A stretch of DNA of 29,198 nucleotides from IMG/VR virus record IMGVR_UViG_3300020044_005488, positions 1 to 29,198 of that record. One strand, given 5' to 3'. This DNA comes from a virus (lineage: Duplodnaviria > Caudoviricetes). This document shows, piece after piece, positions 1 through 29,198 of this stretch. Positions within the stretch are counted from its first letter, which is position 1. Every line of letters begins with the position of its first letter. The notes beneath the pieces are model-generated. The model was not told the DNA's origin and did no database searches. It saw nothing but the letters and a program-made list of their open reading frames with translations. A program made the position numbers and the translations under genes.

Positions 1-66
1 ATTGTCGTTCATGACAATGACTTTGCCCGTTTTGATGTTCAAAACCTTGTGTTCTTTAATAATCAT
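1..66 (-). CDS. Partial CDS running off the window edge (MIIKEHKVLNIKTGKVIVMNDN...)
   Basis: ATG at 64-66 with an A/C-rich leader, open to position 1, directly downstream of the gpF-like gene. Not in the ORF track. Confidence 0.6.
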   Translation of the reverse strand, partial: MIIKEHKVLNIKTGKVIVMNDN

Positions 67-111
67 TGATTGTGTTGTTTTCGGTAAAATTAACGAATTT
101 TTTTTGATTAA

Positions 112-993
112 TTACAAACCTAATTCGGCACGTTGTGATTTTGTCAACTTAAACGGAATCGCTGAATGGCGACAATTATAACCACCACGAAAAACCGCGA
201 AATTGTTTGGTGTCGTTCCCGGAATCATTCCGGTTCCGTTATTGTACGCCCAATTTAATTCGTTTTGTAATTCAGACGCCAACAAAACATTTTTTCCAAC
301 CCAACGGACACATTGTGGTCGTGAATCGTCAATCAATGAACCAACGTATCTGAATGCATCCAAACCGAATGTTTCAGCAATATGCGAATTCACTTGACCG
401 TCGAATTGATTCAGCGAATCGCGCGAAACTTGGGTGACGTATCGTTTCAATTGTGACATTCGTTCCGGGTTGCTCAAAATATAATTTGACAAAAAAACTT
501 CCATGTCCGAAATGGTTGTCCCGGCGACAATGTTTTTATAAATACCCTCACGAACGGGTTGAATGAAATTTGTTGAAACGCCGGTCCCGGTCAAACCATT
601 CAATGTTTGTTCGACATTTGCTTTTTGAATTGGATTAATTAAATCGGACAATTCTTTTTCGGAAATATCATTCACCGATTTTTGCGCGTCAAAATTGAAT
701 TGTTTGATTGTTTCAAATGACCTTAAAAATTCCTTGACTTGCGTTGGATAATTTGAACCCTGCAACGCGTTTTGAATAACGGCGTCGATTTCATTCACGA
801 TTGCCGTGTTGGTATCGTCAAACAAAATTTTGCCACCTTCAACATTCATTGTGTTGATTTTCTTTTTGACCGCATCAAAAATTTTTTTCTCAATATTGTC
901 AAAATTATCAACCAAATCATTTTCCGCAATTAAAACTTCCTTGTCTTTTTTGCCAACTAATTTGTCAATTGAAATCGCGAAAACATCAGCCAT
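112..993 (-). CDS. Minor head / head morphogenesis protein (Mu gpF / SPP1 gp7-like)
   Basis: C-terminal YVGSLIDDSRPQC...RGGYNCRH motif; lies immediately downstream of the portal. Confidence 0.75.
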   Translation of the reverse strand: MADVFAISIDKLVGKKDKEVLIAENDLVDNFDNIEKKIFDAVKKKINTMNVEGGKILFDDTNTAIVNEIDAVIQNALQGSNYPTQVKEFLRSFETIKQFNFDAQKSVNDISEKELSDLINPIQKANVEQTLNGLTGTGVSTNFIQPVREGIYKNIVAGTTISDMEVFLSNYILSNPERMSQLKRYVTQVSRDSLNQFDGQVNSHIAETFGLDAFRYVGSLIDDSRPQCVRWVGKNVLLASELQNELNWAYNNGTGMIPGTTPNNFAVFRGGYNCRHSAIPFKLTKSQRAELGL

Positions 994-995
994 TT

Positions 996-2678
996 TTAAA
1001 TTGAAATTACGGTTGTCGTGTTATATGAATCAACAATCGGTTGCAACGCTTTGTCCAAATCCGCAAAAATTACCGATAAATCATTTTCCAAATATGTCGT
1101 TCCATTATCGGCCACAATTTTTGTCAATGTTTTATAGGCATATAGTGAACGAATTAAATCGTCTTTTTTGATAACACCTGACGCCAACAACATTTGTTTG
1201 TCTTTTGTGTTCACATGATAAATCGGATCGTATGAAACCAAAATTTCAACAATTCGTGTGATTGGTATATTCCCGGAAAAACGTTTTTTTGCAAGGTCTT
1301 TTGTCGCTTCAACTAAAAATGCAACCGGCGCGTTTTTGTCGTTCAATTTATTTATTTCGTCAATCAAGTCGTTTTCGGTTTTCATGCTGAATGAAATCGG
1401 TTTCACAATAACCGGATCAATCGGATTCGCGACGCTTCGATATTTTTCAATAATTAATAAACTTTGATAAATAATTTCGTCAAAAATATTGTTCGAAATT
1501 TTCGTCAACATCATGAATGAATCTTCGCGGTCAATTTCCTTTGCCGTTCCTGATTGCGCTTCGTCAATATTATTCAAATGCAACGCGTCTTCGGCTTTTT
1601 TCAATAATGTTTCCCATGCGCGACCGGAATATTCAATCACATCAACCGGCGGCCCAATAAAACGAATCATTGGTTCACTTGAATTGTTTGGTCCGTCAAT
1701 CAAATTTCCCTTTTCGCGCATAAATACGCCAAACGGCGAACGTGTAATGACGCGCCCGGTTCCCTTACATGAACGACACATGACATGTTCTTCAGTTTCG
1801 CCGTTATAACAAAACCCGTCACGACAACCAGGTGCCGAACATGTTTCCGCAACTTCTTCTCGATAAGGAAAACACGACGTTGTCATGATTGCCGTCCAAT
1901 CTGAATATTGTCGAATCGCTTCATTTGCAAACGGCAAAAACGCGCTGAAATAACTTTCAAAATAATCGTCGTCGGTAACATCACCGCCCAATACAACACC
2001 CGGCAAAAATCCGATGTTGTGTTGATAGATTAATTCAACAACGAATTTGTTGTCTTTTTTAATTCCGATTTGGGTGTGTTTATAAAACGCGTCCGGTGTC
2101 AACGTGTAAATGATTCGGCCTTCTTTTTTATTTCGGCCACCTTGATAAACTTCGCTTTGTTCGTCTTCAGCAACCCACGAAATGACACCTTCGTCAATGT
2201 CCAAAAAATGAATTTGATTTGAACCAACAATCAACGGATAAACGTCAACTTTGACCGTCGGATTTGTCAACCCTTCGCCCGTCGGAATCCATACCAACCA
2301 ACCGTTCGGATCTTCAATCATTCGACGAACGACATATTTCTGAATATACGAATAAAAATATTGATTGTCGAATTTTTGCGTGTTCAAATACGTTGACAAT
2401 TCGTCTGACACCTGAATTGAAAAATTCGCCGAACTAAAAATTCGATACAATTTGTCGATTGCGCGATTGATTGAACCTTTTGTGATTGGTTCGTAAATGT
2501 CCAAACGATATTTTTGAATCTCGGCGTCTTCATTCGGACGTCGTTGTGTTAATATTCGCCCCGGATTTTTCCCGCGTGTATGCACAAACATTTCGTCGCG
2601 TACTTCAACCCAATCGTCTTTTTCTTCTGGTTGCGGCAAATCGCCCAACATTGAATTGTAAATTTCTATTTCAAACAT
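996..2678 (-). CDS. Portal protein with an inserted Cys-rich zinc-finger-like segment
   Basis: 560 aa, largely helical, portal-like SGTAKEIDR motif, sits before the gpF-like gene. Internal CSAPGC...CRSCKGTG. Confidence 0.75.
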   Translation of the reverse strand: MFEIEIYNSMLGDLPQPEEKDDWVEVRDEMFVHTRGKNPGRILTQRRPNEDAEIQKYRLDIYEPITKGSINRAIDKLYRIFSSANFSIQVSDELSTYLNTQKFDNQYFYSYIQKYVVRRMIEDPNGWLVWIPTGEGLTNPTVKVDVYPLIVGSNQIHFLDIDEGVISWVAEDEQSEVYQGGRNKKEGRIIYTLTPDAFYKHTQIGIKKDNKFVVELIYQHNIGFLPGVVLGGDVTDDDYFESYFSAFLPFANEAIRQYSDWTAIMTTSCFPYREEVAETCSAPGCRDGFCYNGETEEHVMCRSCKGTGRVITRSPFGVFMREKGNLIDGPNNSSEPMIRFIGPPVDVIEYSGRAWETLLKKAEDALHLNNIDEAQSGTAKEIDREDSFMMLTKISNNIFDEIIYQSLLIIEKYRSVANPIDPVIVKPISFSMKTENDLIDEINKLNDKNAPVAFLVEATKDLAKKRFSGNIPITRIVEILVSYDPIYHVNTKDKQMLLASGVIKKDDLIRSLYAYKTLTKIVADNGTTYLENDLSVIFADLDKALQPIVDSYNTTTVISI

Positions 2679-3752: not shown

Positions 3753-6581
3753 TTATGGTTTTTTTAATTGAACACCGCAAATTTGATATTTGCCAGGCGA
3801 CAATAAAGATAAATCAATTTTAAAGAATGCCGAACCACCCGAAAACGTCGGGTTGACGTCGTATAATTCCGGACATGATAATTGTGTCAATCCGGTTCCG
3901 CTTGTACCGCCGTTTTCCTCTAACAAGTTATTGACGCCATAAGGGAAACGATCCAACATTGCAATAAACGTGTAATTTGCCGCAACTAATTGTTGAACTT
4001 CAATCAACAAATAATCAAATTGACCGTCGCAAAACGGACCGGTAACATTTGACGGTGTTCCGTTTTTATATCCTTTGACGCTTATTCCTTTTAACATTTG
4101 CGAATAAGGTTGCGGATTTGTTTCATAGTCAACCGGGTGAATTTTGTTGTTTCTTACAATTGTAAAATCACATGATTGACCATAAATCGGTGACAAATCA
4201 AAGTCAAATTGATATTCAAAATAAACGTCTAAATCGGCCCAATCAAAATTCGCGTTGTTTACTGAAATATAGGTTGACGCCAACGCCCCCGCCGGATTTC
4301 GTGTGAAACCTTGCGCCGTATTTGCAACGAAAACATTCCCGTTTGAAATTGGCAAATTTGGTTCATAACGAACACGCCCGTTCCATTCCGTTGACAATGT
4401 TGTTCCGTCGTCACTCACAATCAAATCCGAACTATTGTTTTGCCAATTGCCAGGAAAACCCGCAATTCGATTTGAAGACATTGAATAAAAATAAAAAAAC
4501 GTTGTTTGTCCGGTTGACGGATAATTGTTCACCTTTCTGTAAACATTCAATGTGACTTTTTTCAAAAAATCAATCCATGTGTTTGCCGGATCCATTCCAA
4601 AATTTGTCAAACAAATATCAAACGCGCCACCGGTGATTTGCATTTTGTTTTGAATTCGTTCTTTCATTGTTGGCGCAAAACATTGATTGACGAATGACAT
4701 TGAATAATCATTCCACGTATTTGAATAAGTCAATGAACAACACAATTCAATTCCTGGAATTTGCGTCACCGGAATAATGTCCGAAATAAAAGAATTCGAA
4801 ATCGTTATCAAACCACTAACGCCGTAAACAATCGCACCAATGCGCCATTGTCCGTTTGGATTGATTGAATTATCAATGTAACATGTAACGCGCCATGTCG
4901 AACCACCCACGTTCGTAATTAATGTTGACGGCGCATAAATCAAATTATTCAATTGACCGGGTGTTGCGTCGGTCGGAATTGCAATTCGTGACATGTCGTA
5001 ATTCAACGGAAACGTTGTTGTGTTATCTGTTTGACTTGTATCAAATAACATGATGTAACAATCCCATAATGTCGAAATTGAATCAATTTCAAAAATTAAT
5101 TGCGTTTGTTGAACGGTTGACAAATTAGAAACAAAAACACCGTTGCGTTTGAATTTGAATTGTGGATTCGTAAACTCTGACGCGCCACCGTACAAACCAG
5201 AATTCCAAAAACGCGATGTCCAACCGATTGATTTTGTCAAATAACAATTAAAATCGACGGCTTGTCCATTCACAATTGTTTGAACATTTGAATCGGTGAT
5301 GTAAGTCATCAAACACAAATTTTTGTTTGAATTATAAACCGATTGAATTGTGTTTGTCAACGGTGTTGGTGAACTAATATGTGAATTCAACAACTTTGGT
5401 TGATTTGGAATTGTTGTTCCGTCAATCCAATTTTCAAGGTCTTCAATCATGAAAAAATTCAATGTGATAATGAAATTTGTATTATCAACAAATTGAATTG
5501 TCGCGTTCAAATTCTTTTGTGAATTTGCATTCACACCCGCGCCATATAAAGTCATTTGATACAACCCACCAATTAACGCGTTTGAATTCAGGTCAAAAAA
5601 CCAACCTGCCGGTGGCGGCGAATCAATAATTCCGGAACCATAACGTCCTGGATAGTTGCAATTGATGTCAAATAAAACCGGATTGAAAAATATTTTCACA
5701 CCCGCTTGTAAATTAACATAAGTCATGGTCCATTGCAACGAAACACTTGCGCCAATGCTTATTCGGTCAAATAAAACAGACGAACCGCAATTTCCGATTT
5801 GTTGAACCCACCCACCGTCGGAAAAAATATTCAAATAACGACATCCAATTCCACAATCACCGCAATAGACCGGTTGATAATAAACTAAAACATTGTAGGT
5901 TTCACCGCAATTTGTGACATCAAAATAAAAAATATCACCGTCACTCATGTCCAACGGACACGTTTGAATTCCGACTTCATGTTCACCCGGCGGAATAGGC
6001 AATGAAACGCCCGTTCCCGAACCAGACGCAACGCCGTCAATAAACCAATTGAGCGCACCGGTAAAAAATGAAATCGTTGAAAATCCAACATTGACCGTGA
6101 ACGGCGTTGGATTGTTCACTCTAAAAAAGTCACCTTGTAATTTCGTGCAATCGTCTAAACATGGATGCCAATTAAATTGTGTTTGCGAAATGATTGGATT
6201 TGTGACCGGATCAATATTAATCATGTCAAAGGTCCATGTTTGCGAACCGCTTCCCGGCGAATTCCAATGAACTTCCAACTCAAACGATGTAACGTGACCA
6301 ACGGCCGCGTCACAATCCGCACAAACCGACACCAAACATGTGATTTCATTCAATGAATTCAATGTGATGTTATATGTCAACGGATCGGTCCATGCAACGC
6401 CGTCAACGCTCAAAATTTGCGTCGAACAACCGCCGGTGTTATTTATATGGATTCGATGTATTGAACGCGTCGGTTCGTTCGTGTTCAACTTTACTTTTAT
6501 TTCAACCAAACCACAACAACCCGCAAAAATTGGATTTGTCGCGCCGGAACTGTTATCAACTAAATTCGATGTGATTATCAT
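3753..6581 (-). CDS. Large beta-rich, Cys-rich tail/baseplate or receptor-binding protein
   Basis: 942 aa rich in N/T/S/G and aromatic residues, about 27 Cys, second gene after the tape measure gene. Confidence 0.6.
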   Translation of the reverse strand: MIITSNLVDNSSGATNPIFAGCCGLVEIKVKLNTNEPTRSIHRIHINNTGGCSTQILSVDGVAWTDPLTYNITLNSLNEITCLVSVCADCDAAVGHVTSFELEVHWNSPGSGSQTWTFDMINIDPVTNPIISQTQFNWHPCLDDCTKLQGDFFRVNNPTPFTVNVGFSTISFFTGALNWFIDGVASGSGTGVSLPIPPGEHEVGIQTCPLDMSDGDIFYFDVTNCGETYNVLVYYQPVYCGDCGIGCRYLNIFSDGGWVQQIGNCGSSVLFDRISIGASVSLQWTMTYVNLQAGVKIFFNPVLFDINCNYPGRYGSGIIDSPPPAGWFFDLNSNALIGGLYQMTLYGAGVNANSQKNLNATIQFVDNTNFIITLNFFMIEDLENWIDGTTIPNQPKLLNSHISSPTPLTNTIQSVYNSNKNLCLMTYITDSNVQTIVNGQAVDFNCYLTKSIGWTSRFWNSGLYGGASEFTNPQFKFKRNGVFVSNLSTVQQTQLIFEIDSISTLWDCYIMLFDTSQTDNTTTFPLNYDMSRIAIPTDATPGQLNNLIYAPSTLITNVGGSTWRVTCYIDNSINPNGQWRIGAIVYGVSGLITISNSFISDIIPVTQIPGIELCCSLTYSNTWNDYSMSFVNQCFAPTMKERIQNKMQITGGAFDICLTNFGMDPANTWIDFLKKVTLNVYRKVNNYPSTGQTTFFYFYSMSSNRIAGFPGNWQNNSSDLIVSDDGTTLSTEWNGRVRYEPNLPISNGNVFVANTAQGFTRNPAGALASTYISVNNANFDWADLDVYFEYQFDFDLSPIYGQSCDFTIVRNNKIHPVDYETNPQPYSQMLKGISVKGYKNGTPSNVTGPFCDGQFDYLLIEVQQLVAANYTFIAMLDRFPYGVNNLLEENGGTSGTGLTQLSCPELYDVNPTFSGGSAFFKIDLSLLSPGKYQICGVQLKKP

Positions 6582-6600
6582 GTTTCAAATTTATTTAAAA

Positions 6601-8337
6601 TTAAACAATTCCCGCAACTTGGATCACTCTTTTTGTGAAATCAATATTTAATTCTTTGACAACGCCGTTGACAATTTGCCCGTTTTTAATTAACCGAATT
6701 GTTTTGGCAAAATTAAAATCATTGTATGTTTGACAATCAAATTCAAAAGTAAATTTAAAATCGAATTGCGTCGTTCCTGGCAACCTTGGATCGTCGATGT
6801 AATGAAACAACGAATAAAGATTGTTTTTGTAACTTGCATTGAACCAAAACGGATAATTGAAACGTTCGTCGGGTGCTGGTCCCGGATAACCACCACAAAA
6901 CGCGTCGGAATAGTCATGTTTAACCAAACCGGCCGTTCCTGAATTTGTGTCATAAATCATGAATTTATAATAACCGACTGTATGTTGATTGGTTAACAAT
7001 GTTTGGTCGTAATCTGAAAAAATATTGTGCCAAATGAAATTCACGATTCCACCTAAAAACGTTTGAAAATAATCATAAACGGTCAAATCAATTCCGTCCT
7101 TTCGATGTCGTGACGGCCCTATTTGCAATAATATTTCGCGTGAACCTTTTTGTCCTGGGTTATAGGGAACATTCCATTCGACAATGTCATTGAATCTTGT
7201 TATTGATTCGTTTCCAACATAGTCAACAAAATCTTTTGAATATTGATAATCGCCATAGGACCAACGTTCCTTGTCAATCCAATTAAAACAAATTTCATTG
7301 TTTTGAATTTTACCTTCATTCAATAATTGTTCAACGTCAATCCATGTCGTTGTTGTTTGAAAAAAATCCTTTCGTTCAAAAACCAAAACATTGTTGACAA
7401 TTTGAAATTCGGCATTGAAAATCGGTTTCAAATACGTTTGCATTAACGTTTCAATTGTTTCAATTGGTTTGTTGTCCGAAATCAATGTGAAATCGTTTGA
7501 ATCATACGGACGGCCCTTTGCAACTTGCGCGGCAAATAATACCGTGTTGTAATAAGGTGACGACGGATCATTTAGAATTGAACTTTGAAATTGCAATCCA
7601 CATTTTTCACATGCGTTTTTTATATAGTCACGAACATACGGTGACGGGTGAAAACGACCGCACGGTGCTAATGACGCGCTTAAATCTGTTAATAAATGTT
7701 GAATGTTATTTATCAATGTGATTGGATTTGTTAAACCACCGCCGCAATTAACGTCAACACGTGGAATTGAATTAATAGCCGAACAAATAACATAGACAAT
7801 CCCAAAAATGACAAAAATCACCGGAACCAAAACGAAAAAAATAAATTGAAACGTGAAATTCCAAATTGTCGCTTGTAAAATTAACGCGTATTGTAAAAAT
7901 TCCGGACGTACTTCAATGCAATAACGAATGATTGGATTTGAACGATTCAAAAATCCGTTGTGATTGTCCCAAATTAATGTTGATTTGACGCAATTGATTT
8001 TCGCTTCGTCTTCAATCACATTTGCTGAAATAAAACATTTGGGTTCACACCAATCAATCGCGTCGCCTTTGATAACACCTTCGAAAACCGCTTCGCGACA
8101 ACAATCGTCAAAAATTTTGATTGCAACGCTTTTTGAAAATCCGAATGGATCGTCAATCAATGCCGTTTTTAAAATTTGATAACCGTCATCGTAAAATGTC
8201 AATTCAGATGTGAACGATTTCGCCAATGTTCCGTCTTCGGCACGGTTCCGCAATGTGACCGAAAAATTTTGAATGCCGTCAATCACCCCGGTGACCAATG
8301 TCCCGTTTAATTCAATTCGCATTGTTGAATTTGCCAT
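6601..8337 (-). CDS. Tail tip/hub-like protein with an internal hydrophobic segment
   Basis: 578 aa directly after the tape measure gene; contains a ~40 aa hydrophobic run FLQYALIL...VYVICSAI. Confidence 0.6.
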   Translation of the reverse strand: MANSTMRIELNGTLVTGVIDGIQNFSVTLRNRAEDGTLAKSFTSELTFYDDGYQILKTALIDDPFGFSKSVAIKIFDDCCREAVFEGVIKGDAIDWCEPKCFISANVIEDEAKINCVKSTLIWDNHNGFLNRSNPIIRYCIEVRPEFLQYALILQATIWNFTFQFIFFVLVPVIFVIFGIVYVICSAINSIPRVDVNCGGGLTNPITLINNIQHLLTDLSASLAPCGRFHPSPYVRDYIKNACEKCGLQFQSSILNDPSSPYYNTVLFAAQVAKGRPYDSNDFTLISDNKPIETIETLMQTYLKPIFNAEFQIVNNVLVFERKDFFQTTTTWIDVEQLLNEGKIQNNEICFNWIDKERWSYGDYQYSKDFVDYVGNESITRFNDIVEWNVPYNPGQKGSREILLQIGPSRHRKDGIDLTVYDYFQTFLGGIVNFIWHNIFSDYDQTLLTNQHTVGYYKFMIYDTNSGTAGLVKHDYSDAFCGGYPGPAPDERFNYPFWFNASYKNNLYSLFHYIDDPRLPGTTQFDFKFTFEFDCQTYNDFNFAKTIRLIKNGQIVNGVVKELNIDFTKRVIQVAGIV

Positions 8338-8340
8338 GTT

Positions 8341-11300
8341 TTATTTTGCTTTGTTTCGAATTCGATTTTCTTTGAACTGATAATGTGAAACCAAACCATG
8401 AATTCCACGTTCGTCGATTGACAAATTTATTCGCGATTGTTCCCGAATTGCATTTTCAATTCGCGACAATTGTTGATCCATGTTGTGATTGTTTACGACG
8501 ATAATTTTTTCGCCTAAACCCAACGCCATTTCAGGTGTTCGACCTTTGTGAATCGCTTCAAAAAATGAACGATATTTTGATGTTTTGTCCTTTGTGAAAA
8601 CAAATTCGCCTTTGTGAACAACACCGGCCGTTTCACTTTTGCCACCGTCACCCGTGTAACCACCTTTTTCAAAACCTGCCGCCGCTTGGGCCTGGCTTCG
8701 TGCTGAAATAAATCCGGCCGCCAATGCCAACAATGTCGCGGTAATTGTGAACGGTGCCGCCGGACCACCTAATGCCGCCGCTTTTGCGATTGCGATTGAC
8801 GAATTCAACGCCAATTCAATAAATGCCAACGCTTGTTGTTGACGAACAAATTTTGCACGTTCTTTTGTTAATTTGTCCAAACGTTCTTGTTCCAATTGCA
8901 AAACCTCGGCATTGCCTTTTTCCGCAATTGTTTTGGCTTGTTCAATTCGTTTTTCTTGCGCTGAAATTGCCAAATCCGCTTCCCGAATTCGCGCGTCAAT
9001 GACTTGATTAATGAAATCAATTGTCGCCTTTCGAACGTCTTCAATTCCTTGTTTTATTTTTTCGCGTTTTTCTTCTTCCAATTTTATTTCGGCTTCGCTC
9101 AACCCTTCTGACAATTTCAATGTTTTTTTGCTCGTTGCGTCCTTCTCTTTTAAAATTGCAAAATCCGCTTTTTTATTTATCAATTCAATTTCCTTTACGT
9201 CACCTTTTGCGTTGGCAATATCACGTTGACGATTTTCATTAATTTGCTGAATTCGTTCCTGACTTGCTTTTTCTTCAGCCAAAATTTGCAAACGAATTGT
9301 TTCGGCCAAATTTTTTTTCAATGAATCAATTGCCTTTTTACTTCGTGCTTTTTCAAATTTTTCAATGATTTTGTCTTTTTTTGTTTCTAAATCGGTGATG
9401 GCTTGTTCCTGGATAAATTGACTTTGTTCGAATTGTTGTTGTTGAATGTCTTCGCGCAATTTCTGAATTCTTAATTCTTCTTTGTAACCTTCAGCCGAAA
9501 TTTGATTTCCGGTTCGACGGGCCAAATTCAATTTTTTTTGCGTTCCGATTTGTTCAATCAATGATTCATTTTGTTTCGTCAACGTTCCATTTTTTTTCGC
9601 GTCTTCTTTTTCGCGTTCTGTTTCCAAATCAATGATTCGTTCCTGATCCGCTTGAATTGCCTTCAATTGGGTAAATGTTTCATTGAAATTTTTTGGAACG
9701 ATGTTGACTTCTAATTCCATTCGTGCCGCTTCATTTTCTAAATCGGCCAATTGACGTTTTAAATCATTGAAAAAATTCAACGTGTCATTTTTTGTTTTAT
9801 CGTCAACCTTGCCAACTTGGGAAACATCGAATTTTGATTTTGACAATTGTTGTTCCAAATTCGCCGAACTTTGCGACAACGCGTCAATTGCGTCAACGGT
9901 TTGTGATAATTGTTCAACCGTCTTTTGATTTTGTTTGATGTCAACAACATTCAAAACATTTTTTTGCAATTTGTTTTGTTGTTTTGCTAAATCCGCATAT
10001 TGACCTTCAAATGTTGAATTGACATTGATAATATCTTTTGAAAATGATTTTTGGAATTCCTGGTTGCTGAATGCGACGTTTTTTTGTAAATCACCGGACA
10101 ATGTATTGAAAACCGATTTTTGTTTTTCGCTTAATTTATTTCGAAACGCGTCCAAACCTTCTTCAACTGTTTTGAATGATTTCACGTCAAATTTTCCAAC
10201 ACCTTTGAAAATCGATTCAGATAATGCCGCGCCACCGGATGCGCTTTGTTGAATTTTTGTTTGTAGGTTCAACGCTTGTTTAAACAATTCCGTCAATTGT
10301 TGTGATGTCGCTTCGGCTTGGGCCTTTAATTTGATTTGATTGGTCAATTTTTTATAGGCGTCGTCAACTTGTTTGACAAATTTTTCTTCATCACTCAAAT
10401 TTTTCAACGTTGTTCCGTATGTCGAATTGATTTGGTCAATAATTGTTTTGCGTTCCTTTGATCCGGTCGTTGTCAACTTCAATTGTTTGAACAATTGATC
10501 CAACTTCGAAATTTCGGACGCCATGTTTTGATTTGTTTGTTCCTGAATATTATTTTGGGCTTGTTTCAAATCAATGAACGTTTCCGTTTCTTTATTCGCT
10601 TCAGCGGTTGCGTTTGCGGCCCCTTCGGTTGCGTCGCCGTAATCAATCATAAATGCCGCCGCCGTTGCCAACAATGAAACAACCAATCCAATCGGATTCG
10701 CCTTCAATGCGGTGTTGAAACCTTGTTGTGCAATGGTCGCGATTTCCGTTCCGACCGCATAGGCACGTTGAACAATGTTTCCTTGCACTTGCGCGGCCGT
10801 CTTTAATCTTAATTGAACAAAACCCAATGTCACCGCCGTATTCAATGCGCGTTGACGTAATATAGACAACAACGATTCTTTGTTTGCTAATTGCTGAATG
10901 ACAAATCCGCGAATTTGCGCACTAACGTATAAAGAAACGGCCGCACCCAATAATGAAAACGCAACTTTGTTTTGTTCAATGATTGCAGGAATTCGTCGCA
11001 AAAATTCAATTGCACGTGATGCGCCACCGATTAACACTTCAAAAATTGGTAACAACCCTTCACCAACGGATCGCGCAACCTGGTCAAAATTATCTTTTAA
11101 TGTTGACACACGACCGGCAAATGATTGTCCCAACGTCGCCGTCAAACCTTCAAATTGACCGCCGTTTGACGTTAATGTTTGAAACGCTTTTTCCAAATCT
11201 TTGAAACCGATTTTCCCTTCAGACGCTAATTTTTTAACGTTTTCGGCACCGACGCCCAAATTTTTCGCAAACTCCTGAATGATAGGAACACCCGCTTCCG

Positions 11301-11832: not shown

Positions 11833-11835
11833 GAC

Positions 11836-12757: not shown

Positions 12758-12775
12758 AACTTAAAAAATTTTATT

Positions 12776-12791: not shown

Positions 12792-14072
12792 TCATTTTAG
12801 AAAACGAATAAAATCATGATGAAACGTCCACAAATAATATCTGAAACAATCCAATAAATGCGTCAAATGTTTGTCCTTGCTTTTATCGATGTCGCCGTTC
12901 GAATCGGTTTGAACTGAAATCAGGTCGTTGATTAAGTATTGACATGACGAATCAATCAACAAATCGGTGTGACGTTCCAACATCGAATTCAACAACACGC
13001 GTGAATTTTTTATCGACGGATTAATTGACGGAACTTTGAATTGTGATTTGCTCAACCCTAATTCGTCACGGATTATCGAATAAAAATTCATTGCGCCTTT
13101 TGTCATTGCGGAACGATTCGCCCCGGACGCGTCACCGGTGACAATGAAAAATGGATTTCCAAACGTCGTTTTGATAACTTGACACAAATTGTAAATGTCC
13201 GAATTGCGCAATCTGAATTCTTTTAATATTCGAATTTTCCCGCCGTAACTTTGACCGGCGACACATGTAATCGGATCAACGTTGAAATCGAACGATAAAA
13301 TGATTGGTTCGTTTTTATTGAATTCCAAATTCGATTTGACGGTTTTGAATTTATTGAACGCGTACGCAAACGGACGTTCAACGTTCATGACGTCCCAATT
13401 TCCATTCACGAAAATTTCGCGCGTTACTTCGTCTAAATTTTCCAATCCGTTCAAATACGATTCCGGCAACGACGGATTGTCTTTCATTAACGATTGCAAA
13501 TAAAAATGATCCGGTGTCAATGTTCCGTTGATAAATGGTTCATGAAACAATTCCTTTGTCCAATTTTGCGACGGGTTACATGTGACCAAAATCATGGGAT
13601 TTGGTTGTTTGTCCAATCCTGGAATGATATTTCGTCCCGCTCTCAATTTGCATTTTTCAAACGTTTTGCGTTGGCATTCCTGGCCTTCTTCAATCAAAAA
13701 AAAATTCGCTTCAATACCGTCAAATCGCGTCAAATTTTTGTCCATGACATAGTTTTCCGGGAAAAACGTCAACGTTGAACCGTTTCGAAATTTAACCAAT
13801 TGGTCGGTTTGATTGTAACTTTTGACAAACGATTTCGGGCATAACTTGAAAAACGACGGAATGGTTGTTCGTTTTAATGTTGGCAACGATTCACGAATGA
13901 CAAACGATTTTGAACCTGGATATATTCGGGCCAACAAAATCAATGTCGCCAATGATACGAATGATTTGCCACCACCGGCCGCACCGCCAAAAAGCAAATA
14001 TTTATATTTTTCCGAAAATACCGCCTGAATGAATTCGTGTTGTTTCGGATGCGGTTCAAATAAAATTGACAT
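12792..14072 (-). CDS. terL: Terminase large subunit (PBSX/SPP1-like)
   Basis: Walker A GGAAGGGKS, Walker B FFLIEE, motif III TCNP, nuclease motifs SFDFN, GDASG and HLLDCFRY. Confidence 0.95.
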   Translation of the reverse strand: MSILFEPHPKQHEFIQAVFSEKYKYLLFGGAAGGGKSFVSLATLILLARIYPGSKSFVIRESLPTLKRTTIPSFFKLCPKSFVKSYNQTDQLVKFRNGSTLTFFPENYVMDKNLTRFDGIEANFFLIEEGQECQRKTFEKCKLRAGRNIIPGLDKQPNPMILVTCNPSQNWTKELFHEPFINGTLTPDHFYLQSLMKDNPSLPESYLNGLENLDEVTREIFVNGNWDVMNVERPFAYAFNKFKTVKSNLEFNKNEPIILSFDFNVDPITCVAGQSYGGKIRILKEFRLRNSDIYNLCQVIKTTFGNPFFIVTGDASGANRSAMTKGAMNFYSIIRDELGLSKSQFKVPSINPSIKNSRVLLNSMLERHTDLLIDSSCQYLINDLISVQTDSNGDIDKSKDKHLTHLLDCFRYYLWTFHHDFIRFLK

Positions 14073-15539: not shown

Positions 15540-15630
15540 ATTTTAAACAGATAGGACATATTTTGTCAATCCGAATGTCGTAAAAATTTCGACATGTTTC
15601 GCAACAAATCCAAATTTCATGATTGTTCAT
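15478..15630 (-). CDS. 50-aa zinc-ribbon-like protein MNNHEIWICCETCRNFYDIRIDKICPICLK...
   Basis: Hand-translated. ATG overlaps the methyltransferase TGA; two CxxC pairs; C-terminal tail overlaps the next gene by 62 nt. Confidence 0.5.
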   Translation of the reverse strand: MNNHEIWICCETCRNFYDIRIDKICPICLKYEHHQRRNKTVQRIPKYHVG

Positions 15631-16280
15631 ATTTCAAATAATTTAGTTTGTGACGTGTGATTTTTAATTCGCTGAATTGCTTTGTCGTAATATTCCGAAT
15701 CTAATTCGCACCCGGTCAATTCAAATCCGTAATCATGACAAGCAATTGCAATCGAACCGGAACCAATATGAGTGTCCAAAATTTTGTCACCCGGTTTTGA
15801 ATAATTTTCTAAAATCCATTTGTATAATTTAACAGGTTTTTGTGTTGGGTGAATTTTATTATCATAACCCGCTGAAAAATGATGCATTCTAAACATTCGT
15901 GTTGTTCCTTTTATACTTTTCCACGCCAATTCAGCATCGGACATCGGATTTGTGCCATTCATTTTGTCCCATACAATAAAACCGTCGGTTGAACATAAAT
16001 AATCTAAAAAATAATTGCCACCCCAAATGATTTGATTTTTGCTTACCCTTTTTAATTCATTAAAATAATCTTTTTTTGGAGAAATATCCCATTTTTCAAC
16101 TTTATTATCGGATAATTTCTTTAAACTTCCCATTGAACCTTTTCGCCCACCTTTTATCAATCTATTTCCAAGTCCATAAGGCGGATCGACAATTGCCAAA
16201 TCGAAATATTTGTCCGGGTAACGTGACATCAAAACCATATTGTCTTCATTTGTGATTGTGATTTTGTCGGTGATATTCAT
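15627..16280 (-). CDS. DNA N6-adenine/N4-cytosine methyltransferase, beta class (copy 2)
   Basis: DPPY catalytic motif precedes HPTQKP and the DTHIGSGS SAM-binding motif. Confidence 0.92.
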   Translation of the reverse strand: MNITDKITITNEDNMVLMSRYPDKYFDLAIVDPPYGLGNRLIKGGRKGSMGSLKKLSDNKVEKWDISPKKDYFNELKRVSKNQIIWGGNYFLDYLCSTDGFIVWDKMNGTNPMSDAELAWKSIKGTTRMFRMHHFSAGYDNKIHPTQKPVKLYKWILENYSKPGDKILDTHIGSGSIAIACHDYGFELTGCELDSEYYDKAIQRIKNHTSQTKLFEI

Positions 16281-16912
16281 AATTCAAACAATTTAATTTG
16301 TGAAACATGATTTTTTATTCGCTGAATTGATTTTTTATAAAATTCAACGTCAATTTCACATGCGGTTAATTCAAACGAATAGTCGTGACATGCAATTGCA
16401 ATTGATCCGGAACCAAAATGTGTGTCAATTATTTTATCACCTGGTTTGGCATATTTGTTTAAAATCCATTTGTAAAGTTCAACCGGCTTTTGTGTTGGGT
16501 GAATTTTGTTTCCGGTTCGATTGTCAAATTTGAACAATTGCGCGGGACTTTCAAACGATGTCCAACCAATTTCAACTTGACTAAAATTTTCCCATGGTTG
16601 ACATTTGTCCCAAACAATAACGCAACGCGTCGGTTTCAAATTAAAATAATTGCCACCCCAAATGATTTGATTTTTGCTAATTCGAAACAATTCGTCAAAA
16701 TAACTTTGATTTGGTGCAATATCCCAATTGTCAATTGAACCGTTGTTGTAAATTCTATTTTTGAAATCGCCTTTGCCGCCGCTTTGCGCACCCATTTGAC
16801 GCATTCCATACGGGGGATCGACAATTGCCAAATCAAAAAAATTATCTGGAAAACGTGACATCAAAATCATATTGTCTTCGTTCGTCACTTCTATTTTGTC
16901 GGTGATTTTCAT
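16277..16912 (-). CDS. DNA N6-adenine/N4-cytosine methyltransferase, beta class (copy 1; start MKITDK at 16912)
   Basis: DPPY, HPTQKP, DTHFGSGS; ATGA overlaps at both ends. Confidence 0.92.
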   Translation of the reverse strand: MKITDKIEVTNEDNMILMSRFPDNFFDLAIVDPPYGMRQMGAQSGGKGDFKNRIYNNGSIDNWDIAPNQSYFDELFRISKNQIIWGGNYFNLKPTRCVIVWDKCQPWENFSQVEIGWTSFESPAQLFKFDNRTGNKIHPTQKPVELYKWILNKYAKPGDKIIDTHFGSGSIAIACHDYSFELTACEIDVEFYKKSIQRIKNHVSQIKLFEL

Positions 16913-17172
16913 TTTCTGAATATTTTTTGAAACCATGATTTCCGCTTTTTAATAACGGGCAACGCGTATGTTGTCAACTTCAGGCAATCACAAATGAATG
17001 GATAATGCCGTGAACATTCCATTGACAATTGAAAATTGACCGTTTCGCCGGGTGTGAATTCTTTGTTTTTGAAAAACGGATGCAATGGAAATTCGTTTTC
17101 GAAATTCATTTCGTTGATTTCAACCACTACAAATTGACCGGAATTTGTTTGTTCGATCCAACCTTTGTTCAT
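16909..17172 (-). CDS. Hypothetical protein
   Basis: 87 aa, coupled by ATGA overlaps at both ends. Confidence 0.6.
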   Translation of the reverse strand: MNKGWIEQTNSGQFVVVEINEMNFENEFPLHPFFKNKEFTPGETVNFQLSMECSRHYPFICDCLKLTTYALPVIKKRKSWFQKIFRK

Positions 17173-17384: not shown

Positions 17385-18222
17385 TTTGATTAATTTTTTC
17401 AATTTGTTGATCCAATAATTTTTCGAAATCGTCTTTTGTTGTCCTGAAATAATTGTCAACCGAAATTCGGAAACATTCATTTTTAATTTCCAACGCGAAA
17501 ACATTTTCAAAACCTTTCGTTTCGATGTCGCTTCGTTTGGTCCTAAATTGCGCAAAATTGACCAATTGTTTGTTGTTCCATTCGGCCCGTATAATTTCAA
17601 CCGCTTTGTCTTTTATAGGTTGCTTTTGTTCCGGTGTTAAATTTAAAACGCCCAAATCGTCGGTCAAAAACCGATAAATGAATTGAATGGGTGTAATTCC
17701 GAACGTCAAATGTCCGGTTCGTTTAAAATATTGATATGGTTTGCGAATACATTCGTTTATGTAATCAATCCGAATTTGTTTGCGGTCTTTCATGGACATT
17801 TCAATTTGAACGGGTGTTTCTGTTTTTGGCAAAACCTCAATTCGTCGTTTTTTGTAATTATTTAAAACCTGGCTGAAATAAATCGCATTGAAATTTTGAT
17901 AATGTTCGACCAATTCCAATTCGCCGGAAACCATGAATTGAAACGCGACAACAATTTCGTCGGGTGTTATGGTCGGAAATTTTCGTTTGATAAAATCAAT
18001 CAAAATCATTTTTTGTTCGGTGTTCGGCAAATTTTCGCTTTTTAAACCGATTAATCCGAAAACGTATTTCAACGCGTTTGTGATTTGCGGTTCCGGATCT
18101 TTTAAATCCCGGATTTTTGATTGAGCGATTGCACGTTGAATTTGTCCGATAACGGAATCACCATTTGCGGATTGCGTCCGTCCAATCGACTTTTGTTGGT
18201 TTGTTGTTGTTGGTTTTGTCAT
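17377..18222 (-). CDS. Replication-associated protein (possible helicase loader/partner of the initiator)
   Basis: 281 aa immediately after the initiator, in the lambda P position. No Walker motif seen; function inferred from position only. Confidence 0.5.
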   Translation of the reverse strand: MTKPTTTNQQKSIGRTQSANGDSVIGQIQRAIAQSKIRDLKDPEPQITNALKYVFGLIGLKSENLPNTEQKMILIDFIKRKFPTITPDEIVVAFQFMVSGELELVEHYQNFNAIYFSQVLNNYKKRRIEVLPKTETPVQIEMSMKDRKQIRIDYINECIRKPYQYFKRTGHLTFGITPIQFIYRFLTDDLGVLNLTPEQKQPIKDKAVEIIRAEWNNKQLVNFAQFRTKRSDIETKGFENVFALEIKNECFRISVDNYFRTTKDDFEKLLDQQIEKINQND

Positions 18223-18883
18223 TTTTTGCCCTTTTTAGCCAATTTAAGCACGTTTTGAACGGCGATTGGTATGATGTATTCAATTTTTTATAATTGTCCA
18301 TTGAAATCAAAATTTCGGTGATTTCCTGAAATTCGAATGCGTCCATTAATTTGTTGGCTTCTGTTTCTGTCATTGGCTGATTCATTTTTTGGATGTTCGG
18401 ACAATTTTCAAAAATAAAAATCAACAACGGATTCAATGAATTTTTATAAATATCTTTTTCATTATTACATTCTTTTAATTCTTTTAATTCTTTTTTAGTG
18501 TTCACTCGTTGTTCATCCGTTGTTCGTTTGTTGTTCACTCGTTGTTCATTTTGTTGTTCACTCGATTGAAATTTTTGATAGTTAATGACTGATATTAAAC
18601 GACTTGTGTTTGTTTTTCGTTGTTCAATTTGTTGTTCATTTTCGAACAACTTTAACAACCTTTCAATCTTTGATTCCTGAATGCCGGTTTCATTCGCAAT
18701 TTTTTTTCGGCCGGTCACGAATTGACCTGGTTGTAAATCAATGATTTGACCATTCCAAAAATATTCCGATTTCGTGTGATTTGATTTCAACAAAATGTAA
18801 ATCCATAAATGAACCGCGTCGGAATCCATGAACCAACCTTTGTCCAAAATTGACCTGTGAACTTTTATCCAACCTTGTTCCAT
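18158..18883 (-). CDS. Phage replication initiator / replisome organizer
   Basis: N-terminal GWIKVHRSILD...LWIYILLK...LQPGQFVTGRKKIANETG winged helix, iteron-encoded linker, C-terminal NWLKR. Confidence 0.85.
   Translation of the reverse strand: MEQGWIKVHRSILDKGWFMDSDAVHLWIYILLKSNHTKSEYFWNGQIIDLQPGQFVTGRKKIANETGIQESKIERLLKLFENEQQIEQRKTNTSRLISVINYQKFQSSEQQNEQRVNNKRTTDEQRVNTKKELKELKECNNEKDIYKNSLNPLLIFIFENCPNIQKMNQPMTETEANKLMDAFEFQEITEILISMDNYKKLNTSYQSPFKTCLNWLKRAKNDKTNNNKPTKVDWTDAIRKW
18497..18650. repeat. Iterons of the putative replication origin (GTTGTTC core)
   Basis: Units at 18497, 18508, 18519, 18530, 18541 and 18553 (11-12 bp period), two more at 18619 and 18631, and one inverted copy at ~18644. 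An AT-rich tract lies next to them. Confidence 0.8.
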
Positions 18884-22781: not shown

Positions 22782-22958
22782 TTAGTTTAATGTATAAATA
22801 AGATTAACACCTTTTAAAATTTTGGTCAATCTGTTTTTTGCTTGTTTTTCTGATGTAGTCGCAAATAAACATTGATTTGCTGAATCAACAATCATGAATG
22901 TTTTTCCTGATTTGAAAATTTTTGCGTAATAACTAAAAATGTGAATTGTTGTTGTCAT
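22782..22958 (-). CDS. Early hypothetical protein (start MTTTIHIF at 22958)
   Basis: First gene after promoter cassette A. Confidence 0.6.
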   Translation of the reverse strand: MTTTIHIFSYYAKIFKSGKTFMIVDSANQCLFATTSEKQAKNRLTKILKGVNLIYTLN

Positions 22959-22974
22959 GTTGTTTTTATTTATA

Positions 22975-23049
22975 TGCAAATATAAGTTAAAAATAATTTA
23001 AAAAACAAATATTTTTTAAATTATTTTTAACATTATTTTGTTAATAACT
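22975..23049 (-). promoter_or_regulatory. Promoter/operator cassette A
   Basis: -33 TTTG (23006-23009), 21-nt spacer, -7 TATATTTG (22977-22984). A perfect 20-bp inverted repeat (22986-23005 / 23012-23031) flanks the -33 box. Confidence 0.8.
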
Positions 23050-23259
23050 GATTATTGGCATTTCAATATAAGGATTGACAACTAATTGCATATGCGACGC
23101 AATTGAATCTGAATATTTTTTAATGTTTTCAATGTTTGCCAAATCTTTATATTGGATTTCTCTTTCTAACAATTTCTGATACATTGCTACATATTTTAAT
23201 GGTTCCGCAATATTTTTTTCTGTTAGTTTTACTAATTGTGTTTTGAATTTCGGTTTCAT
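23041..23259 (-). CDS. Early hypothetical protein
   Basis: 72 aa with an (AAC)3 leader. Confidence 0.65.
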   Translation of the reverse strand: MKPKFKTQLVKLTEKNIAEPLKYVAMYQKLLEREIQYKDLANIENIKKYSDSIASHMQLVVNPYIEMPIISY

Positions 23260-23272: not shown

Positions 23273-23611
23273 TTAGTTTATGTATTGAAAATTTTTTCCG
23301 TATGATCCAATTGACATCCAAACATAATGTGAAGGTTGTGTTCCATAATCGCCGGTTTCAAACCATGTTGTCCCGCGTGACGCGATTTCATAAATCTTTA
23401 AAAGCATTTCACGTTGTTCGCCTTGATAATTTTCAGCAATCCAACATTCATTGATTGTTTTGTAATCAACATTAAAATTGACATTTGATTTTAAAATTTC
23501 AATTCTTACGCCTGAATAATGCTCACGGCAAATTGAAAATTTTGTTTTTGGGAATTGTTTTTTTAATTCCGTTCTAATTTCTTTAACTTGTTGTGTTGAG
23601 ATGTAACCCAT
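23273..23611 (-). CDS. LPD29-like (large polyvalent protein-associated domain) early protein (start MGYIST at 23611)
   Basis: The VKEIRTELKKQFPKTKFSI...YSGVRIEI pattern resembles LPD29. First gene after promoter cassette B. Confidence 0.6.
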   Translation of the reverse strand: MGYISTQQVKEIRTELKKQFPKTKFSICREHYSGVRIEILKSNVNFNVDYKTINECWIAENYQGEQREMLLKIYEIASRGTTWFETGDYGTQPSHYVWMSIGSYGKNFQYIN

Positions 23612-23639
23612 GTTGTTGTTGTTTTTTGAATTATTGATT

Positions 23640-23714
23640 TGCAAATATATGTTAAAATAAATTTAAAAAACAAATATTTTTTAAATTATTTTTAACAAAC
23701 TTTTGTTAATAACT
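23640..23714 (-). promoter_or_regulatory. Promoter/operator cassette B (near copy of A)
   Basis: 75 bp with 6 mismatches to 22975-23049 by hand alignment; same -33/-7 boxes and inverted repeat. Confidence 0.8.
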
Positions 23715-24651: not shown

Positions 24652-24652
24652 T

Positions 24653-27667: not shown

Positions 27668-27680
27668 GATATTTTTGTTT

Positions 27681-28625
27681 TTATGGTAATCCTTGAATGT
27701 AGCGATTTTGATTGCAAACAATACAACATTCGTCAATTCGACGCAATAATTGCGGCAAACTTTCAATCAACATTTTCATTTGTTTGTCGTATTCAGCCGT
27801 CCAATTTTCTAATAAAAAATTGATTTTGTCGGTGTCCAACAATGTCAATGAATTCAAACGATCCGTTGCAACCGCTTCGTGTAAAATTTCAATTCCTGAA
27901 CGATATAAAATTGGCAAACCTAATTTTGCGCCCAAAATACACGCGAATTCGTCATTGTCACAAACGGCATTCGCCTGAACTTTTATTCCATAGGTTGAAT
28001 TTGAATTTCCCGAACCGTTCCAACCGTATGCGCTCAAATATTGACCGGACTTTGACGAACAACCGCAACCCGTTTTGATTGACGAATTGTTGACATTGAT
28101 TGTTGAATTGTCCATGTAAATATAAACATCTGGTGTTGTCGATGTAAAATTCAAATTGATTTCCGCTTCGCCTTGGGCGTTGGTTGTGAACGAATATTGC
28201 GTTTGAACATTCCCGTCGTCAACCCAAACATCGTGTGTTGTGTTTGCGTTTCCAATTTTTATTTTGATGTTGGTCACGTTAATTCGTAACATGCGCGAAC
28301 GTTTAACCTGCAAATGAACGCCCCTATCAGCGTTTTGAACCGCCAATGAACTATTTGTCCAATCACCAACCGATAATTCGTCAACGATGCTATTTATACG
28401 AAAATAAGGCAACGCGTAACGCGTCAAATCTGAAATCACCAATTTTGTCGCAAATGCGATTTTTTCATTCAGGAATTGTAAACCTGAAATAAAATCCGAA
28501 TCCGCAATGTTCGCGGCATATTTCAAATTTAAACCTTCTAAATCGTTAATGTATAAACCTGACGTTGGTGTTCCGGTTGTCAAACATTTGACACCGATTA
28601 AATTATTTAAACATGTTGGTTGCAT
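27681..28625 (-). CDS. Cys-rich structural protein, possibly a head-tail adaptor with an inserted beta domain
   Basis: 314 aa; helical N- and C-termini around a beta-rich middle; GCGC and ECCIVC motifs. Confidence 0.55.
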   Translation of the reverse strand: MQPTCLNNLIGVKCLTTGTPTSGLYINDLEGLNLKYAANIADSDFISGLQFLNEKIAFATKLVISDLTRYALPYFRINSIVDELSVGDWTNSSLAVQNADRGVHLQVKRSRMLRINVTNIKIKIGNANTTHDVWVDDGNVQTQYSFTTNAQGEAEINLNFTSTTPDVYIYMDNSTINVNNSSIKTGCGCSSKSGQYLSAYGWNGSGNSNSTYGIKVQANAVCDNDEFACILGAKLGLPILYRSGIEILHEAVATDRLNSLTLLDTDKINFLLENWTAEYDKQMKMLIESLPQLLRRIDECCIVCNQNRYIQGLP

Positions 28626-29124
28626 GGTATGGATCGTTTAAGTAAATATTTTTTTCATTGACTTTTATCAAACAATGGTTTCGTAAATAATCCGGAACCC
28701 AAAATGACGGACATCCCTTTTGCGCAAATTGGTTGTGACCGGCAATCAACACGTCCGGGTTATATGATAAAACTTCGGCAATGATTGACGACAACATTGA
28801 ATTTTGTTGATCCGTCAACGTGTTTTTAATTTGTTTCATGTCTTTAGTCATCCCGCCAATGTAGCAAACGTGACGTGAAACGGAATTGATGCCAGACGCG
28901 CCGTTTGTGATTTCGTTTTCGTCAATCCATTTGTCCATGTTATGTTTCACAAATCGGTGACGACTTCCGTCCAACAAAATCAAATCTGAATAACCAACAC
29001 GCGACCAACCGCGACCAACCGGTTTCGGGGCGCAATGCCAATTTCGAACGGTTTCGGCCGTGACGCTTCGACCTTCCGGTGTCGCCGAACAATGAATCAC
29101 CAAATATTTAAACGGTTTTTTCAT
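28603..29124 (-). CDS. Endolysin, N-acetylmuramoyl-L-alanine amidase (T7-lysozyme/Amidase_2-like; start MKKPFKY at 29124)
   Basis: Zn-amidase motifs YLVIHCSAT, GWSRVGY, CYIGG and GHNQFAQKGCPSF. Confidence 0.9.
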   Translation of the reverse strand: MKKPFKYLVIHCSATPEGRSVTAETVRNWHCAPKPVGRGWSRVGYSDLILLDGSRHRFVKHNMDKWIDENEITNGASGINSVSRHVCYIGGMTKDMKQIKNTLTDQQNSMLSSIIAEVLSYNPDVLIAGHNQFAQKGCPSFWVPDYLRNHCLIKVNEKNIYLNDPYHATNMFK

Positions 29125-29198
29125 TTTCAATTTGTTCAATTTCGGTCGGTTGCTCAACCACTATTTTTTTTGATTTTGGTTTTGTAAATGTAAGCAAA

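What the first reader, a model, noticed from the sequence alone, without database searches (positions are those of the whole stretch)
1..29198. Genome-wide AG/CT dinucleotide avoidance that reshapes codon usage
Seen: a hand count of positions 1-600 gave only 3 AG and 12 CT, where base composition would predict roughly 30-40 of each. GA/TC and CG are abundant. Surviving cases are mostly AAG/CTT or TCAG/CTGA; GAG and TAG are rare, and I noticed no AGCT or CTAG. Leu is almost all TTG/TTA, Arg CGN and Glu GAA, and Ala/Thr/Ser/Pro avoid NCT codons despite an AT-rich genome. Classic palindromes (GATC, GAATTC, CCGG, GGCC) are common, so this is not generic palindrome avoidance. Inference: selection against a host defence or DNA-modifying activity with a very short AG-containing target, or mutational loss of a base modified in AG context, possibly by the phage's own methyltransferases.
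Basis: partly seen in the sequence, partly recalled or inferred. Interest (0 to 1): 0.85.

Follow-up and report, generated by a model that had tools for sequence, protein, structure and literature searches.

The report
Phage purges AG to dodge restriction
A freshwater phage lineage has removed about three quarters of the AG/CT and 60% of the TA letter pairs from its DNA, even altering its proteins, and the spacing of the survivors points to natural selection, likely to evade many host restriction enzymes with two-part targets, a kind phages were thought not to avoid.

Summary
Confirmed. The window is a partial tailed phage, likely of Bacteroidota; 11 of 16 lineages in its subclade share AG ≤0.35. 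It is selection, not hypermutation: silent changes creating AG/CT occur at 8.6% of sites versus 37.5% for neutral ones, and dipeptides that force AG are depleted. Surviving AG and TA adenines lack a T 7-9 bases downstream (AG-N7-T 143 vs 276±15), the Type I/IIB restriction geometry; this tracks depletion across 20 lineages and is absent in AG-normal kin. It explains only part: AG stays at 0.44 without such a T, so contiguous-site enzymes probably add. The phage's own methyltransferases are an accessory insertion missing from most AG-poor relatives. Host not found; no sampled Bacteroidota genome is comparably depleted. The scan noted the same pattern before in another phage (e1-3474494). A published survey reported no Type I site avoidance in phages.

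The parts
1..29198 (.). Partial tailed-phage genome with strand-symmetric AG/CT (0.27) and TA (0.39) depletion; surviving AG and TA adenines lack a T 7-9 bases downstream
15627..16280 (-). N6_N4 (PF01555) DNA methyltransferase 1; accessory, less depleted than its neighbours (CT 0.30, TA 0.59)
16277..16936 (-). N6_N4 (PF01555) DNA methyltransferase 2; with the first it forms an insertion that contigs of two other runs skip (15625 to 16908)
12792..14072 (-). Terminase large subunit, used to define the clade and its tree
28603..29157 (-). Amidase endolysin whose best named matches are Porphyromonas and Bacteroides phages (46-48% identity): the main pointer to a Bacteroidota host
18158..18883 (-). 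DnaD-like replication initiator; no DNA polymerase was found among the 42 ORFs scanned, so replication likely uses host enzymes
22782..23259 (-). Two small ORFs with near-normal AG (0.78, 0.82) and milder TA loss, probably recent acquisitions not yet purged (small counts)

Best explanation
The AG/CT and TA loss is purifying selection on the phage's double-stranded DNA, likely imposed by a large, shifting pool of host adenine-methylating restriction systems whose two-part (Type I/IIB-like) targets usually have AG or TA at one methylated adenine. Shown: new AG/CT is removed by selection; the effect is lineage-specific; adenines in depleted words, and only those, avoid a T 7-9 bases downstream, which is where the second methylated adenine of a Type I site lies on the other strand. 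Inferred: because the partner half-site and the spacer vary between host strains or shuffle within them, no single full site can be eliminated, so the phage purges the shared half-site core, which synonymous codons allow cheaply (Leu TTR, Arg CGN, Glu GAA, no NCT). Inferred: contiguous one-strand m6A targets ending in AG (Type IIG/III/BREX-like) and ordinary Type II palindromes (AGCT, CTAG, GGATCC, TGATCA, GCNNGC) supply the part of the loss that does not depend on the distant T. The host and its enzymes were not identified.
For: Selection: silent transitions that would create AG/CT are seen at 83 of 963 sites vs 416 of 1110 neutral sites; losses 17 of 34; a star-tree simulation gives 0.25-0.36 and 0.88-1.0 under hypermutation but 0.07-0.11 and 0.71-0.77 under selection of S 2.4-3. 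Both bases of the dinucleotide are removed wherever silent. K/E/Q + V/A/D/E/G dipeptides, which force an AG, are at 0.71 of expectation here, 0.45 in G1025, 0.90-1.03 in five records with AG 0.63-1.02; the i+2 control is 0.99 here and 0.88-1.01 across records. Geometry: T at distance 8/9/10 from the A is 0.78/0.51/0.69 for AG and 0.71/0.68/0.83 for TA, 0.93-1.08 for AA, AC, AT, CA, GA, and not depleted upstream; AG-N7-T 143 vs 276±15 in shuffles; with the protein fixed the odds of the AG state fall to 0.43 with a T at distance 9 (z -4.2); new AG alleles appear at 66 of 551 sites without such a T vs 61 of 925 with (p 5e-4; control distances p 0.92). Type I methylated bases are 6-9 bp apart (PMC3874165 Table 1). 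Across 20 lineages link strength tracks depletion (Spearman 0.88 AG, 0.84 TA; kin are not independent); lineage-specific words (GAC in L286/L312/L347, CAY in L356) show the same link; near-empty bipartite motifs cluster at distance 8-9 (17 of 26 here, some counted twice; 0 of 0 and 0 of 5 in two AG-normal kin). A freshwater Bacteroidetes genome has five bipartite motif pairs, all with an AG or TA half (PMC6329791 Table 3); the window holds 6 of those sites vs 30 expected from base composition, AG-normal kin 44-48 vs 40-43. Shuffling Type I loci are reported as common in Bacteroidetes (PMC7641763).
Against: AG with no T at distances 7-11 is still only 0.44 of expectation here and 0.18 in L286; silent NNY|T sites without the partner are 7 of 203: the bipartite geometry explains perhaps a 2-3-fold part only. 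AG-N7-T is halved, not absent, and all four NAG contexts are affected, so no discrete site is pinned down. Observed loss polymorphism (0.50) is below the selection model's 0.71-0.77. The BS15 sites are not further depleted beyond what half-site rarity gives (6 vs 8.8), so they are an example, not the host's motifs. By my rough reading of the Type I rows in part 1 of 41 of a REBASE-derived list, AG or TA halves are common but not clearly above chance across all bacteria. Weaker A...T deficits occur in 14 of 146 unrelated loci for AG, some perhaps from helix periodicity. A survey of about 4000 viruses found no Type I or IIG site avoidance (PMC6286503). No host was found.
Confidence: 0.62

Rival explanations
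1. Contiguous one-strand m6A systems (Type IIG, III, ISP, BREX), many of whose motifs end in AG, are the main driver, and the Type I-like link is a minor addition.
For: Strong T-independent, context-specific loss: without T at 8-10, CAAG 3/38, CGAG 2/31, GCAG 2/39, TGAG 3/38 but TCAG 54/85, AGG 25/28; G is depleted 3-5 bases upstream (OR about 0.7); many IIG/III sites end in AG.
Against: Does not explain the TA loss or the T at 7-9 bases, seen for both AG and TA and for lineage-specific GAC and CAY.
Confidence: 0.15
2. One undescribed host defence (a degenerate Type I-like enzyme or a DNA-modifying toxin) acts on AG and TA adenines with graded, loose specificity and prefers a second adenine one helical turn away on the other strand.
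For: All four NAG and all four TAN contexts show both depletion and the link; the loss is graded, not all-or-none; other adenine contexts in the window show no pair avoidance.
Against: Sister lineages lose different words (CG 0.06 in L029; GAC, CAG near 0 in L286; GGG, TGG, CAY in L356), and discrete holes such as AG-N6-CT 0/53 and GGA-N6-TC 0/35 look like many ordinary enzymes. AG-N7-TA is not empty (26 vs 38), so one AG+TA enzyme does not fit.
Confidence: 0.12
3. Mutational bias (host repair or a modified, hypermutable base in AG/CT), with the phage mimicking its host.
For: The phage has no polymerase; AA/TT is enriched as CT to TT would give; two Bacteroidota genomes show a milder signature of the same shape (G080 AG 0.60, CG 1.75; G074 AG 0.69). 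Methylation-deamination was proposed for CpT loss in invertebrate DNA viruses (PMC4219779).
Against: Hypermutation predicts loss polymorphism near 0.9-1.0; observed 0.50. Gains are suppressed for every mutation type and depend on a base 8-10 nt away. All 401 Bacteroidota genomes sampled hold the four-AG pattern; lowest AG among 20 checked by sequence is 0.60; lowest ratio in 251 genomes of G080's family is 0.28 vs about 0.02 expected at phage level. These are samples, not the host.
Confidence: 0.06
4. The phage's own tandem methyltransferases modify AG/CT and the modified bases erode.
For: Two tandem PF01555 genes are present here and in G002, as expected for a two-strand non-palindromic target.
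Against: Absent in 14 of 15 records searched, including complete genomes G1025 (AG 0.11) and G1032 (AG 0.16); kin L021, L006, L007 lack both and L003 has one different gene; contigs of two runs skip the cassette; no modification gene is shared by the AG-poor records.
Confidence: 0.03
5. Translational selection (host tRNA pool or an RNA-level nuclease).
For: Codon usage is extreme.
Against: Deficit is as strong at codon junctions, in intergenic DNA and for both AG and CT on the coding strand; no tRNA genes in the window; distance link is strand-symmetric.
Confidence: 0.02

Closest known systems
Restriction-site avoidance in phage genomes (Rusinov et al. 2018, PMC6286503)
   Same: Non-temperate dsDNA phage depleted of host restriction targets; orthodox Type II palindromes are missing here too (AGCT, CTAG, GGATCC, TGATCA, GCNNGC).
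   Different: That survey found no avoidance of Type I or IIG sites. Here the signal has Type I geometry, acts on half-site cores rather than full sites, shifts a dinucleotide four-fold and changes amino-acid neighbours.
Type I / Type IIB restriction-modification (Loenen et al. 2014, PMC3874165), including shuffling loci of Bacteroidetes (B. fragilis GAC-N5/6 sites, PMC7641763) and the Lake Biwa Bacteroidetes BS15 motifs (PMC6329791)
   Same: Two adenines on opposite strands 6-9 bp apart; fixed half-site with variable partner; AG/TA halves in BS15; GAC halves depleted with the same link in three sister lineages.
   Different: No enzyme or host is identified; depletion is graded and spans all NAG and TAN contexts; a large part does not depend on the partner T.
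[quoted passage not shown]
   Same: Phage escape from Type I restriction by losing an AG-containing bipartite motif.
   Different: One motif, one genome region, short-term escape; here the whole genome and a whole clade are reshaped.
CpT(ApG) depletion with CpG excess in large DNA viruses of invertebrates (PMC4219779)
   Same: Same dinucleotide directions (AG/CT down, CG and TT up).
   Different: Eukaryotic hosts, attributed tentatively to methylation and deamination; that mechanism fails the polymorphism test here.

Membership tests
Avoidance of Type I/IIB bipartite sites | An adenine paired with a T (adenine on the other strand) 6-9 bp downstream is avoided | tested here: met
   spacing from PMC3874165 Table 1
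Avoidance of Type I/IIB bipartite sites | Directional: partner lies 3' of the adenine, not 5' | tested here: met
   upstream T 1.01-1.12 at distances 4-11
Avoidance of Type I/IIB bipartite sites | Discrete 3-4 bp half-site pairs eliminated | tested here: inconclusive
   near-empty motifs cluster at distance 8-9 and are sharp in sister lineages, but AG-N7-T is only halved and AG-containing pairs are too rare for power
Avoidance of Type I/IIB bipartite sites | Depletion vanishes where the partner base is absent | tested here: not met
   AG without T at 7-11 is 0.44; 7 of 203 at NNY|T sites: Type I geometry alone is insufficient
Avoidance of Type I/IIB bipartite sites | Host encodes hsdRMS or IIB genes with matching specificity and restricts by site number | not testable with these tools
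   host not found
Orthodox Type II palindrome avoidance | 4-6 bp palindromes absent | tested here: met
   AGCT, CTAG, TGATCA, CGATCG, GTCGAC, GGTACC 0; GGATCC 1; GCNNGC 1
Orthodox Type II palindrome avoidance | Accounts for the dinucleotide deficit | tested here: not met
   all non-palindromic NAGN words are also depleted; GAATTC 41, CCGG 137, GGCC 44 are common
Methylation-driven dinucleotide decay (CpG-type) | High loss rate at the motif with normal gain rate | tested here: not met
Methylation-driven dinucleotide decay (CpG-type) | Responsible methyltransferase present wherever the depletion is | tested here: not met
   (phage-encoded only; a host enzyme was not testable)
Host-signature mimicry | Host genome has the same odds ratios | tested here: inconclusive
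   none of the sampled Bacteroidota approach 0.27, but the true host is unknown

The most novel reading that the evidence does not exclude
These phages face an undescribed host defence that reads only AG or TA around an adenine, helped by a second adenine one helical turn away, so that every such pair carries a small cost; this loosest known self/non-self DNA code has rewritten the codon usage and dipeptide content of a whole phage clade, and a relative that gained a glycosyltransferase plus PAPS-reductase-like cassette (G004) has escaped it and regained AG.
Probability: 0.12. Interest if true: 0.9.

Novelty: new variant of a known kind. Interest (0 to 1): 0.68.

Why it matters
If right, phages do adapt to Type I-like restriction, but by purging shared half-site cores instead of whole sites, which site-by-site surveys would miss. 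The pressure is strong enough to change codon usage and protein sequence. The adenine-to-T distance test reads host restriction geometry from phage sequence alone, gives candidate motifs for matching uncultured phages to host methylomes, and offers a testable cause for some extreme TA and AG depletion in phages. It also warns that k-mer host prediction can fail where phage signatures are driven away from the host's.

Tried and rejected
Host search: terminase profile over 151 genomes of G080's family, 33 of its genus, 55 of G074's family, 301 of G006's order and 301 of G008's family found only distant prophage terminases (best 394 bits); BLAST of 18.2 of 29.2 kb of the window against 5 low-AG genomes gave only short chance-like matches; the profile scans of genome and metagenome contigs read 13 and 2 of 64 parts. 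One relative's terminase carries an Aequorivita MAG label, treated as probable co-binning. G080 and G074 have ordinary hsdS counts and no distance link in 20 kb each. Single AG+TA enzyme rejected. No tRNA. Structure search of methyltransferase 1 gave only general beta-class matches and no specificity. No named phage is close (terminase under 28% in the 30 rows listed). The tree is the quick IQ-TREE run; the careful one did not finish. Literature: searches showed no report of this clade, of AG depletion of this size in phages, or of half-site purging; most subscription papers, including Forni et al. 2024 (seen only in a reference list), are not in the library. PMC11282364, PMC11409064, PMC8594841 and PMC8919816 (passages only) gave no AG/CT range; the last reports Type I motifs undetected in marine samples.
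Full report
Observation. Over the window the strand-symmetric odds ratio of AG/CT is 0.27, low in every 1-kb bin; TA is 0.39, CG 1.86, AA/TT 1.46, GA/TC 1.04. Codon claims are correct. Palindrome avoidance is present as well (AGCT, CTAG, TGATCA, CGATCG, GTCGAC 0; GGATCC 1; GCNNGC 1), while GAATTC, CCGG and GGCC are common.

What the DNA is. A partial tailed-phage genome, all genes on the minus strand: minor head protein, tape measure, terminase, DnaD-like initiator, RecT/Bet, holin, amidase and two tandem PF01555 methyltransferases. No polymerase, tRNA or known anti-restriction gene was found. The amidase's best named matches are Porphyromonas and Bacteroides phages and the best terminase match in bacterial genomes is a Flavobacteriales MAG (40%), so a Bacteroidota host is likely. 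Contigs 85-99% alike cover the tested 9.9 kb in four runs, three labelled freshwater or lake.

Distribution. 118 loci fell into 33 clusters at 90% terminase identity. In a 16-cluster subclade (quick tree, support 87) 11 have AG 0.10-0.35, three 0.45-0.51 and two have recovered (L020 0.76; L029 0.84 with CG 0.06). More distant kin L337, L277 and L279 are normal (0.98-1.10). Among 207 loci of at least 3 kb from outside the clade the lowest AG is 0.66. Each lineage lacks its own words: CAG, GAC and TAG near zero in L286; GAG, GGG, TGG and CAY low but AAG normal in L356; GATC absent in L301 and L312.

Own methyltransferases. PF01555 was found in 1 of 15 related records; complete genomes G1025 (AG 0.11) and G1032 (0.16) lack it. 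Close kin L021, L006 and L007 lack both genes, L003 has one different gene, and contigs in two other runs join 15625 to 16908 directly. A C5 methyltransferase occurs in G001, G1027 and G005 only. The cassette is accessory and not the cause; it may be a counter-defence (inference).

Selection versus mutation. In an alignment of 18 close loci (16 records), at silent sites with at least five sequences and invariant neighbours, transitions that would create AG/CT were seen at 83 of 963 sites, neutral ones at 416 of 1110, losses at 17 of 34; every mutation type with enough sites was suppressed. Removing two near-duplicate loci gave 79 of 1040, 413 of 1174 and 16 of 35. A simple star-tree model predicts gain 0.25-0.36 and loss 0.88-1.0 under hypermutation, and 0.07-0.11 and 0.71-0.77 under selection of 2.4-3 units; the data reject the first and match the second for gains but not fully for losses, plausibly because surviving AG sit in tolerated contexts. 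The pressure reaches proteins: K/E/Q followed by V/A/D/E/G, which cannot be coded without AG, is at 0.71 of expectation here (z -8) and 0.45 in G1025, against 0.90-1.03 in five records with AG of 0.63-1.02 (G005 is 0.84); 348 of 888 coding AG/CT in the window are such forced cases. TA gains are not suppressed overall (119 of 319), only by mutation type and by context.

Geometry. Adenines in AG and TA lack a T at distance 8, 9 and 10 (0.78/0.51/0.69 and 0.71/0.68/0.83 of frame-matched control distances); AA, AC, AT, CA and GA do not, and upstream positions do not. An independent shuffle test gives AG-N7-T 143 vs 276±15. With the protein held fixed, a T at distance 9 lowers the odds of the AG-containing synonymous state to 0.43 (z -4.2), with no such effect in two AG-normal kin, which removes helix periodicity as a cause. 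New AG alleles are twice as frequent where no T lies at 8-10 (66 of 551 vs 61 of 925, p 5e-4; control distances p 0.92), and likewise for TA (p 0.002). In each depleted lineage the rare xAy words are the ones lacking the T (Spearman 0.59-0.89 in 13 sequences; 0.10, 0.38 and -0.26 in three controls), including GAC in L286 (1 vs 14 expected at 8-10). G004 regained AG and lost the AG link while keeping the TA link. Seven to nine bases between an A and a T is the spacing of the two methylated adenines in Type I sites (6-9 bp; PMC3874165, section 6 read).

Limits. The link explains only part. AG with no T at distances 7-11 is still 0.44. The remainder is context-specific: CAAG, CGAG, GCAG, TGAG and ACAG are rare regardless, while AGG and TCAG are largely spared. 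This fits contiguous one-strand m6A motifs ending in AG (several in part 1 of 41 of the site list of PMC6286503), but that is inference. Weaker A...T deficits occur in 14 of 146 unrelated loci, so the link is not unique to this clade; its size, and its coupling to four-fold depletion, are.

Host. Not found. All 401 Bacteroidota genomes sampled hold a four-AG pattern; of 19 picked by eye for the lowest ratios or counts, plus G006, the lowest AG is 0.60; G080's family does not approach phage level. A real freshwater Bacteroidetes genome has five bipartite m6A motif pairs, each with an AG or TA half (PMC6329791, section 9 read); the window holds 6 such sites against 30 expected from base composition, G1025 1 against 36, AG-normal kin 44-48 against 40-43. 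This shows the pay-off of the depletion, not the host. Shuffling Type I loci with a fixed half-site (GAC in B. fragilis) are reported across Bacteroidetes (PMC7641763, passages).

Comparison and novelty. It works like restriction-site avoidance, but the survey of PMC6286503 (passages and part of one supplement) reports none for Type I or IIG sites; PMC12455610 (passages) shows local loss of one Type I motif. CpT loss with CpG excess is known in invertebrate DNA viruses with a different proposed cause (PMC4219779, passages). Eight searches found no report of this pattern in phages. Enzyme class names for IIG, III, ISP and BREX motif shapes beyond those seen are recalled. Verdict: a real, clade-wide, selection-driven signature; new variant of restriction-site avoidance; mechanism about 60% as stated; interest 0.68.

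Noticed in passing
G004 (L273:1424-3499, minus strand): The relative nested in the AG-poor clade that regained AG (0.75) carries a TET-associated glycosyltransferase (PF20691, E 5e-33) beside a PAPS-reductase-like gene; possible DNA modification cassette relaxing selection. One case; TA is still 0.19.
   Followed up: partly
L029 (4 kb): A close relative (terminase 77%) has CG at 0.06 and near-normal AG (0.84), the opposite signature.
   Followed up: no
L042: Unrelated phage with CG 0.06, TA 0.27 and the same TA...T link (0.68, z -5.9).
   Followed up: partly
L356, L352, L286, L312: Sharp bipartite holes: AG-N6-CT 0/53 (L356), GGA-N6-TC 0/35 and GAA-N4-TTC 0/24 (L286), CCA-N7-TC 0/28 (L312); candidate host motifs.
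   Followed up: partly
G080 contig 1, G074 contig 1: Bacteroidota genomes with a milder signature of the same shape (AG 0.60 and 0.69, CG 1.75 and 1.47, AA about 1.4); several other low-AG genomes share G074's family.
   Followed up: partly
G001 4801-17312: A 6.6-kb tail block appears twice and the small terminase is missing; probably an assembly artefact.
   Followed up: no
window 23273-23644 (-): Small protein with an LPD29 domain (PF18847, E 6e-9) in the variable region; possible anti-defence function, untested.
   Followed up: no
G1030 (L405:3004-3930): An AG-normal relative carries TIGR03299 and a MazG-like gene not seen in the AG-poor records.
   Followed up: no
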